A stretch of 64,000 nt of DNA from Octopus vulgaris. Taxonomy: Eukaryota. Of this stretch, positions 1-20,650 are shown one piece after another; within the stretch, counting starts at the first letter, position 1, and each line of letters opens with the position of its first letter. The stretch covers positions 55,676,001-55,740,000 of the forward strand of contig OX597831.1 of NCBI GenBank assembly GCA_951406725.2, in the 5' to 3' direction. A program made the position numbers and the translations under genes. Below the pieces are notes generated by a model. It was not told where the DNA came from and searched no databases. It saw only the letters and a program-made list of their open reading frames with translations.

Positions 1-116
1 ATCTTAATAATAATAATTATGGCTTCAAAGTTCGGAGGAGAAGACTAGCACAACGATTGGAGGGGGGGACTAGTCGATTACATCGACCCCAGTGCTCAAC
101 TGGTACTTAATTTATA

Positions 117-350
117 AGGCGGCAAGTTGGCAGAAACGTTAGCACGCCGGGCGAAATGCTTAGAGGTATTTCGTCTGCAGTTACGTTGTGAGTTCAAATT
201 CCGCCGAGGTCGACTTTGCCTTTCATCCTTTCGGGGTCGATAAATTAAGTACCAGTTACGCACTGGAGTCGATGTAATCGACTTAATACCTATGTCTGTC
301 CTTGTTTGTCCCCTCTGTGTTTAGCCCCCCTGTGGGTAATATAGAAATAG
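117..350 (+). mobile_element. tRNA-derived SINE family A (Meta/MESC-like core), representative full copy
   Basis: A-box TGGCAGAAACGTTAG, B-box GAGTTCAAATTCC, core GACTTTGCCTTTCATCCTTTCGGGGTCGATAAA and end AAAGAAATA. There are more than 20 copies or fragments in the window, e.g. 352-487(-), 6215-6420(-), 7140-7510, 8314-8700, 10325-10557, 14801-15035, 19638-19869, 56258-56490(-) and 57255-57370. Confidence 0.9.
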
Positions 351-934
351 GTGCTTAATTTATCGACCCCGAAAGGATGAATAACAAAGTCGACCTTGGC
401 GAGATTTGAACTCAAAACGTGAAGCGGGACGAAATGCTGCTAAACATTTTGTCTGGCTCGCTAATTATTCTACCAGTTCGCCGCTTTGGCAACAACAACA
501 ACAACAACAGCAGCAGCAGCAACAACAACAGCAGCAGGAGTAGCAACAAAACGTTTTGAAGTATTTAGATAATATAAGTGAAAGTCAAGTACTAGAGGTC
601 AACTTAAACTTACCACCACCACCACACCGCAAAATAACTAGTGTTCTTGTGTGTATGGTAGAAATTATTATAATCATATAACAAATTATGTTCGGTCTAT
701 TGGGTGGGGGTTGAAGTTAGCTATTGATCGTGTGTGGAGTCTGATTGTTTCCGTTTCTTTTTATTAATTCAATGACCTCTAATTGAATGTAATATACTTT
801 CTCTTCAGTATCTTCAATCCTGTGCTACTTCGTAACAATTTTATTGAGGATATTGGCTTATCTCATCGCTGTTGATAGTCTCGTGATGTAATACATGCAT
901 ATGCACGAGTTCACACACACGCACTCACTTTCCC

Positions 935-2050: not shown

Positions 2051-2097
<47 letters not shown>

Positions 2098-2099
2098 CT

Positions 2100-2450
2100 T
2101 CTATGCGGCATAAACGCTATTGGGAAAGACTCATGAGATTAAGACTCTATCCCTTAAAGCGTAGGCGAGAAAGATATGCCATAATATACATCTGGAAGAT
2201 CCTGGAAGGACTTGTACCAAACTTTGGCATCGAGAGTTACACAAATACTAGAACTGGGTGCCACTGCATAGTGCCAAGGACTCCAAATTTGCCATCAAGA
2301 TGTAGGACAAGATACTGCAAGAGCCTGGGCTTCAGAGGTCCACAGCTCTTCAATATCCCCCCGAAGGACCTGAGAGACCTGCATGGGGTGGATGTAGGTG
2401 TTTTCAAAATAAAACTGGACCTCTTACTGTCAAGTGTCCCAGATGAACCA
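2100..2450 (+). mobile_element. LINE 3' fragment (CR1/L2-like C-terminus)
   Basis: YWERL..LRLY.L.RRRERYAIIYIWKILEGLVPN...FRGPQLFN..P..LR...FK.KLD..L..VPDEP is a typical CR1/L2-group ORF2 C-terminus. Confidence 0.7.
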
Positions 2451-2451
2451 G

Positions 2452-2810
2452 CTTCGTTCTGTAGCAGTAGGCCTTTTGGTGTACTCAGTTGCCAGCCCAG
2501 GCTCCGCTGTTCATCTACTCCGCAGGGTGGATGAACAGGTTGCGAAGAGCAAACTGTCAAAATATCGGTCGCTCTCTGACAGATTTATAGTCGAGCCTGT
2601 GGCAGTGGATACTCCGGTGTTCTCGGCTCCCAGACCATATCTCTGCTCACCGCTATCGGGGTGAAGATGGCTATCCGCAAACGTGAGGCCCATGTGTCAG
2701 AGTGGTTGTTCCAGCGCATCTCTCTCGCCGTCTTCCAGGGCAACGCCGTTTCCTTTTTGTCTGCTGGGACCAAGAAGTGGTCTGAATTACAGGAAATCGA
2801 GAGACCGTAA
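2452..2810 (+). mobile_element. Non-LTR retrotransposon fragment, restriction-like endonuclease domain (CRE-like)
   Basis: KLSKYRSLSDRFIVEPVAVDT followed by WLFQRISLAVFQGNA (frameshifted). Confidence 0.6.
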
Positions 2811-3289
2811 GAATTTCACCGCTTACTTACATCGTTATATTTCAGGCTAATCATTTATTGACCCTACTTCCTCCAAAGATATGCTTACGAACGATAGTCT
2901 CGACTAAATAGAGGCTTTTATCGAGACTATATAAAGGAGCGTCTCTAATCAAAGAGGAAAAGGATTTGGGCAGAGTTTACCGGTTAATCACCGCCAACTC
3001 CTGTTCTACAACTTCGCCAGCAAACAAACACGACTCAGTAATCGCAGAGTGAAACACACCCAGCTTTATAATTTGTGCAGAAAAACAAAACAGTGAGCTT
3101 CATAAGTTACGTAGGAAAACACACCCATCCATTTCCACTAATAATGTTAAAACCTTTTTAGTATTACGGAGATGTACTTGCATAGCAAGTGACCTGATCT
3201 GAGATCGTGTGCTGGAACGAAAACAATTGCAGTGTGGAAGGTGTTTATAAGCCATTTAAGAAACACACAAAATCCGTTAGATCCGTTAA

Positions 3290-3340
3290 TTTGTCAAAAT
3301 ATTTTCGTCGCTTTGAGACCGCGACCTGTTCACTGACAAA
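3290..3340 (-). ncRNA. Hammerhead-like motif with G3:C8 covariant core
   Basis: The minus strand reads UUUGUCA-GUGAACA-g-GUCGC ggucucaaa GCGAC-GAAA A ua UUU-UGACAAA. Stem I (7 bp) and stem II (5 bp) are perfect, and stem III is palindromic. Confidence 0.65.
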
Positions 3341-3461
3341 ATTCCGATGTATACGATTTCCCCCCACACTGTACAATTACACAGCATTCAGACATACATA
3401 CCTATATAAAATGCTAAGAGTACCAATACTGATAGTAGAGTAAGATAGAAGGATGCTGCTG

Positions 3462-3540
<79 letters not shown>

Positions 3541-4610
3541 AATATAGGGGATTAGTGGAGGGGAGGTACGACGACGAGCTCGGGGCGAACCTGGACGTCG
3601 ACGAGGAATACCTGACCCGCCTGTTCGGGACGACTTTCCGGCCAGGGCCCATGGACAACTTCCAGAGATCCCTGGCCTGGCAGTGCTACCGAGAAGCGCT
3701 ACCCGTTCGGGATAAGCTCTACAGACACGGCTCGAGAAGCACGGGGCCGACCTGCCCGTGATGCGGTCAGAGCGACGAAACCCGTTCTGCACGCACTCGT
3801 GCAGTGTCCAACAATTTCCGACCTGTGGGCTTATGTCTAACAACTGCTGTCACGTGTGGGACGAGTCGGTTTATCAGCTGAGTCTATCGTCAATATTGTC
3901 ACGCCTCCTTCCTTCAAACGGGAAGGAAGAGCTATTTTCATCATCCTTGTGGCTATGGCGAAGGAATGTATCTGGTGGACGCGTCTGAAAGGATTGGAGA
4001 CAAACACTTTCCTCTCTGGTCAATCTCTCATCAACTTCTTCAAGTACCACTTGAAAAGGAAAGTGAGAGTAGAGAGGCAAGTTTTGTCTAGCGAATGTTT
4101 TAAAAAAGATGGTTGAATGTAGCAAGGATGGCACGTATGAATGACGAAGCCACCTTGAGCATAGTCCTATGAACCCAGAAATTGAAAACAGAGGGTTACC
4201 CACTTGCAAACAAATGTGGTAACATATAACAATATTGACCGAGGTTACCGTGGTCTTTTTCGTAGGCTTTTCTTCCCACGGATAAACGTTATCTGCTTTC
4301 CCCTTTACACCGTACATCATGACACTGTGATACACGATCCCTATTGAACGTTTTTTTTCTTCTCCCCCATTTTTCCTCTTTTTTCTTCCTTTTTTATTTT
4401 TCTTTTCCTTTTTTTCCTTTTTTTTCTTTCCTTTTTTTCTTTTTTTCTTTTTCCCCTTTTACGATCCCTTTTAATCGAAAACCTACGCCACTTTTTTTTG
4501 TTTCTTTTGTTTTTTGTTTTTTTTTGTTTTTCTTCATCCCACAAAAGAAAAGCTCTACCTTGTAATTTGTCCCATCTGTGTGCAGCCCTGTGTGGCCAAT
4601 AAAGAAACTT
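3541..4610 (+). mobile_element. Tx1/L1-clade LINE 3' portion inside a (TATC)n tract
   Basis: RSLAWQCYREALPVRDKL...TCP.CGQSDET resembles the C-terminal zinc knuckle. It has a T-rich 3' UTR and ends AATAAAGAAACTT then (ATCT)n. Confidence 0.7.
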
Positions 4611-5517: not shown

Positions 5518-5935
5518 TTATTTCTTTGTTGCCCACAAGGGGATAAACATAGAGGGGACAAACAAGGACAGACAAAGGGGTTAAGTCGATTACATCAACC
5601 CCAGTGCGTAACTGGTACTTATTTAATCGACCCCGAAAGGATGAAAGGTAAAGTCGACCTCGGAGGAATTTGAACTCAGAACGTAACGGCAGACGAAATA
5701 CCCATTTCTTTAATACCCACAAGAGGCTAAACACAGAGAGGACAAACAAGGACAGACATAGGTATTAAGTCGATTACATCGACCCCAGTGCGGAACTGGT
5801 ACTTAATTTATCGACCCCGAAAGGATGAAAGGCAAAGTCGACCTCGGCAGAATTTGAACTCAGAACGTAGCGGCAGACGAAATACCGCTAAGCATTTCGC
5901 CCGGCGCGCTAACGTTTCTGCCAGATCGCCGCCTT
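5518..5935 (-). mobile_element. SINE family A head-to-tail dimer
   Basis: Full copy followed by a 5'-truncated copy, junction at ~5700. Confidence 0.88.
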
Positions 5936-6652
5936 TTGTTAAATGCTATCTTGCAGTTTGGTTTATGAGGGAATAAATTTATGTTTTTTAAATTGTTCAT
6001 TCAGCATGTCTTAATGGAACAAACAAAAGGGTCAACGTCAAGCTAACAGACTTGTTTTGTTTTGGGGACAGTGAATGTCAAATCACATATAGCTATGAAT
6101 ACTGATTTTAACTTTTGGCACAAGGCCAGCTATTTAGGAGGCGGGAGTGAGTCAATTATATCGACCCCCGGGCTCAATTGATGTTTATTTTATTCTTTTC
6201 TACTCTAAGCACAAGTCCCGAAGTTTTTTTTTGTTCTTTTCTTTGGGGAGGGGGGCAGTCGATTAGATCGACCCAGTACGCAATTGGTACTTAATTTATA
6301 ATTTATCGACCCCGTAAGGATGAAAGGCAAAGTTAACCTTGGCGGAATTTGAACTCCGAACGTAAAGACGGACGAAATGCCGCTAAGCATTTTGCCTGGC
6401 GAGGTAAAGATTCTGCCAGCTTTACACTTTTAGTTATGAATATTAGCATGTAAAAACTGGGTTGAAAATCCCTTTTGGATAGAAAAGGTGGAAGATTACC
6501 CGTCGAACACGAACCCACGTCTCCTGTAGATATGACAAACGTTCTACCGTTGGACCAAAATAAATCCTTCAAATTTTTTCTATTCTTTTAAAAAGATTCA
6601 TTTTTACCAGCGAGAATCTATGCTGTTAACATCATTAATTTAGAGAGAACTA

Positions 6653-7061
6653 GGGCGGCGAGCTGGCAGAATCGTTAGCGCACCGGGCGAAATGCTCAGC
6701 GGTATTTCGTCTGTCGATACGTTCTGAGTTCAAATTCCGTCGAGGTCGACTTTGCCTTTCATCCTTTCGGGGTCGATTAAATAAGTACCAGTTACGCACT
6801 GGGATCGATTTAATCTGTTTGTCTGTCCTTGTTTGTCCCCTCTGTGTGTAGCTCCTTGTGGGTAGTAAAGAAATAAGAATCGTTAGCGCACCGGGCGAAA
6901 TGCTCAGCGGTGTTTCGTCTGCCGACTTTGCCTTTCATCCTTTCGGTGTCGATTAAATAAGTACCAGTTACGTATTGGGGTCGATGTAATCGACTTAATC
7001 CCTTTGTCTGTCCTTGTTTATCCCCTCTATGTTTAACCCCCTGTGGGCAATAAAGAAATAA
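6653..7061 (+). mobile_element. SINE family A head-to-tail dimer
   Basis: The second unit restarts at AGAATCGTTAG (~6876). Confidence 0.88.
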
Positions 7062-7541
7062 ATAATTTAGAGAGAACTTGAATTTATCTATTTCTCATTC
7101 AGTTATCACAACAAGAAGGACAAGCTGAAAAGTTTTATTTGGCGAGCTGACAGAATCGTCAGCACGCCGGACAAAATGCTTAATGGCATTTTCCGACTCT
7201 TTACGTTTGGAGTTCAAATTTCACCGAGGTCGACTTCGCCTTATATACTTTCGGGATCCACGAAATAAGGATCAGTTGAGCACTAGGGGCGACATAATTG
7301 ACTAGCCCCGTCCCACAAATTTCCTGGCCTTGTGCCTCGTAGTAGAAAGGATTATTCCTAAGGCGACGAGCTGGCAGAATCGTTAGACTGTTGAACAAAA
7401 AGCTTAGAAACATTTCTTTTGGCTACTTACGTTCCGAGTTCAAATAACGCCGAGGTCAACTTTGTCTTTTATCCTTTCGTAGTCGATAAAAGTACTGGAA
7501 TCGATGTAATTGATGTCCGTCATTCTTTTATTCATTCAATG

Positions 7542-19116: not shown

Positions 19117-19183
19117 CAGCTAGCAGGCCTCTGCTACTCTAGACTGATGATGGGCAAGACCCAGAAACGTGCATGTCTCTAGA
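19117..19183 (+). ncRNA. Type I hammerhead ribozyme motif, canonical core
   Basis: UCUAGA-CUGAUGA-UGGG caaga CCCA-GAAAC gugcau GUC-UCUAGA. The core is at 19144-19150 and predicted cleavage is after C19177. The distal stem I partner lies at 19387-19406, beyond an inserted MITE. Confidence 0.85.
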
Positions 19184-19184
19184 T

Positions 19185-19385
19185 CAGTGGTTTTCAACCA
19201 GGGTTCCGCCAGTACAGTCCAGGGGTTCCGCAAGAAGTTACAAAACTGCTAAAATCGGCAGTAATTTTTAATTCTCCTGTGCAGATATGTGTGCATAAGA
19301 CTATTAAATTATTGCACAGGGGTTCCTTGAGCCAGTGGAATGTTTCCTTGGGGTTCCGCTCCAGCAAAAAGTTTGAAAAACACTG
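19185..19385 (+). mobile_element. 201 bp hAT (Charlie-like) MITE
   Basis: TIRs CAGTGGTTTTCAACC and GTTTGAAAAACACTG, with a perfect 8 bp TSD CTCTAGAT (19177-19184 and 19386-19393). Confidence 0.9.
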
Positions 19386-20650
19386 CTCTAGATGCAGGCC
19401 TAGCTGTTGGGGGTGTTTGTCTCCCCTTCGTAAATATGTAAGGACACGGGAAATGTGCCAAGGCCGACAGGAAGCGTCGATGCTTCCTAGAGTTAAACAG
19501 CGGTGGTGTAATTCCCTTACAGGACTGTCACGTTAAGTTGACAGTATACAACCACTCTATCGATAATATCGAGTGGAAATAGGTGGGAGAGGGGCTGCAG
19601 TTCCGCAGTGCCTATATACGAGCCGCCACTGGCTGGTAGGCGGCGAGCTGGCAGAAACGTTAGCACGCCGGGCGAAATGCGTAGCCGTATTTCGGCTGCC
19701 GTTACGTTGTGACTTCAAATTCCGCCGAGATCGACTTTGCCTTTCATCTTTTCGGGGTCGATAAATTAAGTACCAGTTACGCACTGGGGTCGATGTAATC
19801 GACTTAATCCCTTTGTCTGTCCTTGTTTGTCCCCTCTGTGTTTAGCCCCTTGTGGGTAGTAAAGAAATAGGTATAGAACATCTTTGATCTCCGATACGGT
19901 ACCGAGAGAAATGCTTCAACTGAATCTGATACAATGCACATATACTTTTATTCTTTCACTTATTTCAATCATTAAACTGCGGCCATGCTGGGGTACTACT
20001 TTGAAGAATTCTAGTCGAATGAATCGACCCCAGTACTTTATTATTTTTTTTAAGCCTGATACTCATTCTATCAGTTCTTTTGCCGAATAGCTAAGTTATG
20101 GGAACGTTAACACTCCAACACCGGCTGTCAAGCGGCGGTGGTGGACACACACACACACACGACAGGTTTCTTTCAATTTCCGTCTACCAGCTCCAAGGTG
20201 CCACGCAGTGGGACTGAACCCGGAACCATGTGGTTGGTGTTGTATTTCACTCTTACAGGACAAATGTGGAATATTCGTAACAACAAGCTCACTTTTGGAG
20301 AACCACGCTGTACCGTTGCTAGTAGCATTCACCCGTCGTGATTTCCATGTGATTGCACGAGACTTCCTTTGAGAGTTCTATATACATGTGAGGATACCAA
20401 ATCAACAACCCAGTGCAACTATCACAGTTGGGAAGCAGGATTCTTACCACACAGCTACTCCTGCACCTTATGCACACAGAATATTTTTATGCCCTGCTCT
20501 AAACCATATTAAACACGAATGCACACACACTCAACGTCAAATAAAACATCAATTTACGTAAATGATTGCTAAAATGAATTAAAGTGAATTAATTACCATT
20601 TGGGCGAACAAGCAATTTATCGTCTTGAAAAATTGAAAGTAAATTGCACC

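What the first reader, a model, noticed from the sequence alone, without database searches (positions are those of the whole stretch)
3290..3340. Natural hammerhead core with compensatory G3:C8 swap
Seen on the minus strand: perfect 7 bp stem I (UUUGUCA/UGACAAA), core GUGAACA instead of CUGANGA, perfect 5 bp stem II (GUCGC/GCGAC), GAAA and palindromic AAUAUU stem III. Established: C3 and G8 form a tertiary Watson-Crick pair in the active hammerhead, and the double swap rescues activity in engineered ribozymes. Inference: both positions changed together, which suggests selection for catalysis. A standard CUGANGA search would miss this family. The UUU cleavage triplet is suboptimal.
Basis: partly seen in the sequence, partly recalled or inferred. 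Interest (0 to 1): 0.75.

Follow-up and report, generated by a model that had tools for sequence, protein, structure and literature searches.

The report
Natural G3:C8 hammerhead in Penelope retroelement
A jumping gene with thousands of copies in this animal genome carries a likely self-cutting "hammerhead" RNA in which the two bases of a key catalytic pair have traded places, while related jumping genes use two other complementary pairs at the same spot, which suggests the active shape is under selection, although cutting has not been tested.

Summary
Largely confirmed. Stems I and II, GUGAACA, GAAA, the AAUAUU palindrome and the predicted cut (3297/3296) are at the stated coordinates. The motif lies in a solitary 185-bp end fragment (pseudo-LTR plus tail) of a Penelope-like element encoding RT and GIY-YIG. 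G3:C8 is the family state: 7,710 of 8,432 pattern matches. Related elements carry the same motif at the same place with C3:G8 (7 families) or U3:A8 (4); all 12 families pair 3 with 8. One sister family differs in the core only at positions 3 and 8. The tree suggests G3:C8 is derived. Cleavage is untested: no RNA evidence, and copy ends are not enriched at the cut (1 of 138). Natural U3:A8 is published; five searches found no natural G3:C8 report, but key papers were not held. The scan noted a different G3:C8-like core beside a Penelope RT in another genome, left unsettled. New variant of a known kind.

The parts
3162..3346 (-). Solitary, 5'-truncated pseudo-LTR plus tail copy of Penelope-like family A
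   Evidence: Similarity to other genomic copies ends at about 3162 and 3346; same sequence forms the 3' end of RT/GIY-YIG elements
3334..3340 (-). Stem I, 5' strand (7 nt)
3327..3333 (-). Core G3 U4 G5 A6 A7 C8 A9 (G3 = 3333, C8 = 3328)
   Evidence: G3 in 92 of 95 and C8 in 83 of 95 sampled copies
3326..3326 (-).
   Evidence: sequence; G in 11 of 12 related families; extra base typical of PLE minimal hammerheads (PMC4209133)
3307..3325 (-). Stem II (3325-3321 with 3311-3307, closing pair G10.1-C11.1) and 9-nt loop II
   Evidence: loop varies between subfamilies, 32-46% at five positions
3297..3306 (-). G12 A13 A14 A15.1, palindromic AAUAUU (3303-3298) that would form stem III between two copies, and U17 (3297)
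   Evidence: GAAAAU unchanged in 95 of 95 copies; palindrome duplex only -0.2 kcal/mol
3290..3296 (-). Stem I, 3' strand; predicted cut between 3297 and 3296
   Evidence: the commonest variant (18 of 95) turns a U-A pair into U-G
3285..3286 (-). Site of a 15-nt deletion in this copy, just after the ribozyme motif
   Evidence: alignment to two other genomic copies
3162..3255 (-). First 31 codons of the retroelement ORF; includes the roughly 60-nt optional tail
   Evidence: 26 of 31 residues equal the ORF start in tandem locus L156; 39 of 49 inverted partner arms end about 60 nt earlier

Best explanation
The motif is the type I minimal hammerhead homolog in the pseudo-LTR of a Penelope-like retroelement, with the 3:8 pair changed from C:G to G:C in this family, and it is predicted to cut slowly after U17 when helped by a second copy or by the element's protein. 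Shown: it sits in the untranslated leader, G3 being 78 nt before the ORF start in this copy, and about 1 kb after the ORF stop in tandem elements. Twelve families keep a Watson-Crick 3:8 pair in three different states, and stems I and II stay paired while their sequences change. Inferred from established hammerhead chemistry: the 3:8 pair positions the 2'-OH of residue 8 as acid and G12 acts as base, so base identity at 8 can change if the pair is kept. Inferred: stem III has two pairs around a 2-nt loop and cannot close within one copy, so it would form between the palindromes of two copies in a tandem transcript. Inferred: pre-existing U17 made the swap tolerable, since G3 would pair strongly with a C17. 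Inferred: cutting trims multimeric or read-through transcripts but is not the step that makes the insertion template, because copies span the uncut site. The window copy is solitary and most likely a dead insertion.
For: Host element: RT (YVDD) plus C-terminal GIY-YIG, Pfam PF01541 E 1.8e-5; tandem pLTR-ORF-pLTR in L156; inverted 5' partner in 49 of 89 loci, two 3' ends, frequent (TA)n flanks, as described for PLEs (PMC8557442, PMC11167929). Family state: 7,710 G3:C8 against 462 with another base at 8 and 260 with another base at 3. Sisters in the same genome: family B C3:G8 (4,076 matches); family C CUGAAGAG in 31 of 38 copies, differing from family A's eight-base core only at 3 and 8. Scan free at 3 and 8: 14 of 19 regions hit, every first hit Watson-Crick; shuffles hit 58 of 3,800 regions, 12 of 59 hits Watson-Crick. 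Twelve families: 7 C:G, 4 U:A, 1 G:C; permutation 41 of 200,000, not corrected for kinship. Tree: A sister to B (100/99), next L179 with C:G (89/90); about three independent switches. C3G/G8C partly restores a PLE hammerhead in vitro (PMC11167929).
Against: No cleavage data. 5' ends of copies are not enriched at the cut: 1 of 138 within 2 nt. In the anole element, hammerhead mutants did not affect insertion in vitro and no RNA-seq reads ended at the cut (PMC11167929). PLE minimal hammerheads cleave weakly in vitro (PMC4209133). A G at the extra position was strongly detrimental in a viroid hammerhead (review PMC3705267). Relatives tolerate other core changes: C at 9 in family B and L177, A at 12 in the L184 group, U15.1-A16.1 in L178, which could mean relaxed catalysis. 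RNAfold pairs G3 with U17. C8 is lost in 5.5% of matches and both arms of 4 inverted pairs share G8. Five of 17 metagenome regions lacked an intact motif. G3:C8 rests on one family.
Confidence: 0.7

Rival explanations
1. The hammerhead fold is kept by selection for a non-cutting job, such as a docking structure for the element's protein or a dimerisation signal, and cleavage is negligible.
For: [quoted passage not shown]
Against: The 3:8 pair belongs to the catalytic conformation (established knowledge); G12 is kept in 11 of 12 families and position 17 is never G in the scan hits, though the scan required that. A natural U15.1-A16.1 variant does self-cleave (PMC3088659).
Confidence: 0.2
2. The ribozyme died in the founder of family A, and the two changes were fixed by drift or by DNA-level constraint such as an internal promoter; their complementarity is luck (about one in three for the second change).
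For: G3:C8 is seen in one family only; 5' ends of short copies pile up 20-23 nt before G3, which may mark a start site so that the motif overlaps promoter-proximal DNA (inference).
Against: Against family C the eight-base core differs only at 3 and 8. Loop II and flanks change between family A subfamilies while core and stems keep pairing. Stem II has a compensatory G-C versus A-U pair between A and B/C. No amplified sublineage with a broken pair was seen among 40 loci fetched for variant cores.
Confidence: 0.08
3. Chance look-alike, or a by-product of coding sequence.
For: Modest folding z-scores in longer context; no Rfam hit.
Against: The motif lies upstream of the ORF start; same position and shape in 12 families whose proteins are 27-57% identical to family A; 0 hits in 10 shuffled windows; Rfam also misses canonical-core sisters.
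Confidence: 0.02

Closest known systems
Minimal type I hammerheads of metazoan Penelope-like elements (Cervera and de la Pena 2014, PMC4209133; read: parts 1-2 of 4 of the text, supplement part 2 and search passages)
   Same: In the pseudo-LTR; extra base between 9 and 10.1; G10.1-C11.1; palindromic, unstable stem III; U17 common; thousands of solitary and opposite-strand copies. In D. virilis an intron ends at stem I; here an acceptor-like sequence ends 14 nt before it.
   Different: Published consensus is CUGANGAH; rows seen start CUGA or UUGA, none GUGA. The extra base is G here, in 11 of 12 families of this clade.
Natural U3:A8 hammerheads (PMC3088659 section 8 read in full; PMC4209133)
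   Same: Natural compensatory change of the same tertiary pair; four relatives of this element use U3:A8.
   Different: G3:C8 needs two transversions and puts a pyrimidine at position 8.
Engineered C3G/G8C hammerheads, including the anole Poseidon element (PMC11167929, parts 1-2 of 4 read; PMC8495972, one passage)
   Same: Same base pair; same layout of hammerhead just before the ORF start and a tail inside the ORF's first codons.
   Different: Those are laboratory mutants with partial rescue; this one is the wild-type state of an amplified family.
Nematis clade of C-terminal EN+ PLEs (PMC8557442, passages, section 11, supplement passages)
   Same: C-terminal GIY-YIG with CCHH and a short CX3CXXC linker resembling the Nematis rows by eye; (TA)n flanks.
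   Different: Clade not tested by a tree with named elements; the RT has an RW motif recalling Hydra, but Hydra lacks CCHH.

Membership tests
Hammerhead ribozyme (type I, minimal) | Stems I and II flanking the core, G10.1-C11.1, A15.1-U16.1, H17 | tested here: met
Hammerhead ribozyme (type I, minimal) | Literal core consensus C3 U G A N G8 A | tested here: not met
   G3 and C8; replaced by a complementary pair
Hammerhead ribozyme (type I, minimal) | Watson-Crick pair between 3 and 8, supported by covariation | tested here: met
   12 of 12 families, three pair types
Hammerhead ribozyme (type I, minimal) | Stem III formed within one copy | tested here: not met
   not in the predicted fold; two pairs around a 2-nt loop; palindrome fits the dimer form of PMC4209133
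Hammerhead ribozyme (type I, minimal) | Loop I-loop II tertiary contact of fast hammerheads | tested here: inconclusive
   stem I has no closing loop in a single copy; loop II varies between subfamilies; no contact evident by eye
Hammerhead ribozyme (type I, minimal) | Match to an Rfam hammerhead model | tested here: inconclusive
   no hit, but none either for four relatives with known-type cores
Hammerhead ribozyme (type I, minimal) | Site-specific self-cleavage after residue 17 | not testable with these tools
   only assembled contigs available; no genomic 5'-end excess at the site
Penelope-like element (EN+) | Single ORF with RT and C-terminal GIY-YIG | tested here: met
   PF01541. RT recognised by motifs; Pfam RVT_1 hit only a homolog (P0059), below cut-off
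Penelope-like element (EN+) | Pseudo-LTRs in tandem or inverted arrangement with optional 3' tail | tested here: met
   L156; 49 of 89 loci with inverted partner, tail about 60 nt against the 30-40 nt described
Penelope-like element (EN+) | Spliceosomal intron in the leader | tested here: inconclusive
   acceptor-like sequence before stem I; no GT-AG joint in four runs' contigs
Nematis clade | Groups with named Nematis elements in an RT tree | not tested
Non-LTR retrozyme | Short tandem monomers each with a hammerhead | tested here: not met
   window copy is solitary; one tandem array of 426-bp units exists elsewhere (L123)

The most novel reading that the evidence does not exclude
This is the first natural, selected G3:C8 hammerhead: a wild ribozyme with cytidine at the general-acid position, reached from C3:G8 in a Penelope-like clade whose U17 and extra G permit all three observed 3:8 pairs. 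The clade is then a natural mutagenesis series showing that Penelope hammerheads are kept catalytically competent even though insertion uses uncut RNA.
Probability: 0.4. Interest if true: 0.68.

Novelty: new variant of a known kind. Interest (0 to 1): 0.52.

Why it matters
Whether the weak minimal hammerheads of Penelope-like elements do anything in vivo is open: they barely cleave in vitro and were dispensable for insertion in the one reconstituted system. Three different Watson-Crick states of the catalytic-conformation pair in one clade argue that the active geometry is under selection, and give a ready panel of natural RNAs to test. A wild G3:C8 core also extends hammerhead search patterns: this one family adds over 7,000 motifs that CUGANGA or UUGANAA searches miss.

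Tried and rejected
Rfam scans: uninformative. Idea that G3-G8 copies record an evolutionary intermediate: rejected; they are scattered over subfamily backgrounds, and 3 inverted pairs have G8 in one arm only. Idea that family A keeps a C3:G8 sublineage: 1 of the first 100 listed non-G3 matches (of 260) had C3:G8 (counted by eye), and it belonged to family C. Long-terminal-inverted-repeat DNA transposon: rejected once RT/GIY-YIG ORFs were found upstream. Coding explanation: the motif is upstream of the ORF start. Cleavage footprint in genomic 5' ends: none; 21 ends at +20 to +29 are probably alignment stops in the variable loop II. Reads: no RNA holder listed; contigs cannot show ends; no splice joint seen. 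MAFFT alignments of the motif misaligned stem II, so pair counts were taken from structure-anchored positions; one search had wrong family C coordinates and one search's 5'-end part used a reference without tail, repeated. BLASTP of the window's 31 codons against family B's N-terminus found no alignment; that likeness is by eye only. Pfam found nothing in six flanking frames. Papers not held: PMC1986816 and the 2017 RNA Biology paper on dimeric Penelope hammerheads. The supplement of PMC8557442 was cut when stored, and figures of PMC3088659 and PMC4209133 were not visible, so a published G3:C8 example could have been missed.

Full report
Observation. On the minus strand, stem I (3340-3334 with 3296-3290), GUGAACA (3333-3327), stem II (3325-3321 with 3311-3307), GAAA (3306-3303), the AAUAUU palindrome and U17 (3297) are all present. 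RNAfold finds stems I and II but not stem III, and pairs G3 with U17; z is -2.5 for the 51-mer and fades in longer context. A hammerhead scan free at 3 and 8 finds this motif and one canonical motif in the window, and none in 10 shuffles. Rfam finds no hammerhead here or in four relatives with known-type cores.

The repeat. Window 3162-3346 is a copy of a dispersed repeat in G000 (2.8 Gb; the best named protein relative is annotated Octopus vulgaris). A 30-mer over the core has 1,273 exact matches. With fixed flanks, 7,710 matches have G3:C8, 462 have G3 with another base at 8, and 260 have another base at 3 (lower bounds, and the last two patterns fix A7). In 95 copies spanning the motif, out of 145 distinct copies chosen without using the core (some are tandem duplicates), G3 is kept in 92, C8 in 83 and the eight-base core in 67; loop II differs at 32-46% at five positions and GAAAAU never changes. 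The window copy has a 15-nt deletion after the motif and no second copy in the window.

The host element. [quoted passage not shown] L156 shows pseudo-LTR, start codon, ORF (with a stop and a frameshift in that copy) and second pseudo-LTR; window 3255-3162 encodes the first 31 residues, 26 identical to L156. Among 89 loci picked by the tail (89 of the 150 scored), 49 have an adjacent inverted arm, and 39 of those arms end about 60 nt short of the tail end. This is the pLTR, tail and inverted-copy layout described for Penelope-like elements (PMC8557442, passages; PMC11167929, parts 1-2). The endonuclease linker resembles Nematis rows by eye; clade membership was not tested.

Covariation. Family B in the same genome (57% identical over 643 residues; 4,076 matches) has at the same place C3:G8, C at 9, the extra G, a stem II with an A-U pair where family A has G-C, and an unrelated but paired stem I. 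Family C has CUGAAGAG in 31 of 38 copies, differing from family A's core only at 3 and 8. A metagenome scan gave 39 related loci; 17 reach the ORF end with at least 150 nt of flank. A scan unconstrained at 3, 8 and 9 hit 12 of these 17, 97-153 nt after the matched ORF end, plus A and B: 14 of 19, every first hit Watson-Crick at 3:8. One later, non-paired hit in L178 looks like background. L180, L199, L200, L202 and L203 had none. Shuffles hit 58 of 3,800 regions, 12 of 59 hits paired. Merging four near-identical loci and adding family C gives 12 families: 7 C:G, 4 U:A, 1 G:C; a permutation gives all paired in 41 of 200,000, not corrected for kinship. In a 14-row protein tree (midpoint root, family C absent) A is sister to B (100/99), then L179 (89/90); L177 (U:A) is sister to L181 (C:G) (100/99); U:A and C:G also share the other clade. 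That gives about three independent switches, with G3:C8 most simply derived from C3:G8.

Mechanism. From established hammerhead chemistry (recalled), the 3:8 pair places the 2'-OH of residue 8 for acid catalysis and G12 is the base, so the pair matters more than its bases. The double mutant partly rescues a PLE hammerhead, which cleaved only with the element's protein present (PMC11167929). Stem III here could form only between two copies; the palindrome duplex is weak (-0.2 kcal/mol), so cutting would be slow or assisted, as reported for this class (PMC4209133). U17 is common in the clade and in the published alignment, which includes a UUU case. PMC3884650 (passages) notes that G3-C8 did better with G17 than with C17; I infer that U17 lessens a G3-C17 trap and made the swap tolerable.

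Against activity. Only 1 of 138 5' ends lies within 2 nt of the cut, while 79 lie 7-30 nt before G3, peaking at the acceptor-like AG; insertion templates were uncut, as in the anole system. G at the extra position harmed a viroid hammerhead (review PMC3705267, passage). Relatives show further core changes at 9, 12 and 15.1. C8 is lost more often than G3, though without a single amplified lineage. No run on record as RNA holds the sequence. Contigs of four runs show no substitution at 3% or more across the core, with three rows hidden, and no splice joint.

Novelty. The class, the extra base and natural U3:A8 are published (PMC4209133; PMC3088659 section 8). Searches for G3C8, G3-C8, GUGANCA, 'G3 and C8', and C3-G8 with U3-A8 found no natural G3:C8 report; of the listed papers I read passages of PMC3884650 (engineered variant) and saw PMC5389462 only as a listing (RNA duplex structures). 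The 2017 dimeric-hammerhead survey and the 2007 pair-exchange paper were not held, and figures were not visible. The 2026 retrozyme preprint (part 1 of 5 read) used standard models. An earlier scan note describes a different G3:C8-like core beside a Penelope RT in another genome, left unsettled; I did not test it.

Verdict. A real, homologous, family-wide hammerhead variant with good comparative support for a compensatory swap; catalysis likely but unshown. New variant of a known kind; interest 0.52.

Noticed in passing
window 19138-19393 (+): Canonical hammerhead (CUGAUGA at 19144, cut after GUC 19177) followed by a 201-bp insertion (19185-19385) with terminal inverted repeats and an 8-bp target duplication, landing at the end of stem I; hAT-like by recall.
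   Followed up: partly
L144:9545, L150:7564-8148, L117, L128:3180: Other repeat families in this genome carry U3:A8 hammerhead-shaped motifs, so all three pair types coexist in one genome.
   Followed up: no
L123:2627-5733 (G000:C27, 32.59 Mb): Tandem array of 426-bp units, seven with the full pseudo-LTR plus tail: a retrozyme-like arrangement in which dimers could form in cis.
   Followed up: no
21-23 nt before G3 in longer copies (e.g. L114:9346-9363): Branch-point-like, pyrimidine-rich sequence ending in AG; 5' ends of short copies pile up here, so it may be a transcription start or a splice acceptor. No splice joint seen.
   Followed up: partly
L114:9409-9488, run X7: Eleven A-to-G places in one probable RNA run, mostly nearly absent from two other runs, as expected for editing of the inverted-repeat duplex; no matched DNA, so alleles are not excluded.
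   Followed up: no
L139:6392, L177:2497, L178:4973, L184:7104: Further core variants in this clade: C at position 9 (family B, L177), U15.1-A16.1 (L178), A at position 12 (L184 group).
   Followed up: partly
L031, L032, L037, L046-L048: One palindromic insertion with the same flanks recurs at several loci, twice in opposite orientation 2.8 kb apart, apparently carried inside another repeat.
   Followed up: no
G000, one search list: C8-to-G is 29 of the first 100 non-C8 matches (counted by eye), more than C8-to-A (18), and is spread over subfamilies; possibly a mutation hot spot.
   Followed up: partly
window 2097-2810 and 3555-4170 (+): Broken reading frames that resemble non-LTR retrotransposon C-termini by recall; no Pfam hit.
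   Followed up: partly
window 55-490, 5560-5930, 6250-6420, 6650-7500: Many copies of a short interspersed repeat, recalled as an octopus tRNA-derived SINE.
   Followed up: no
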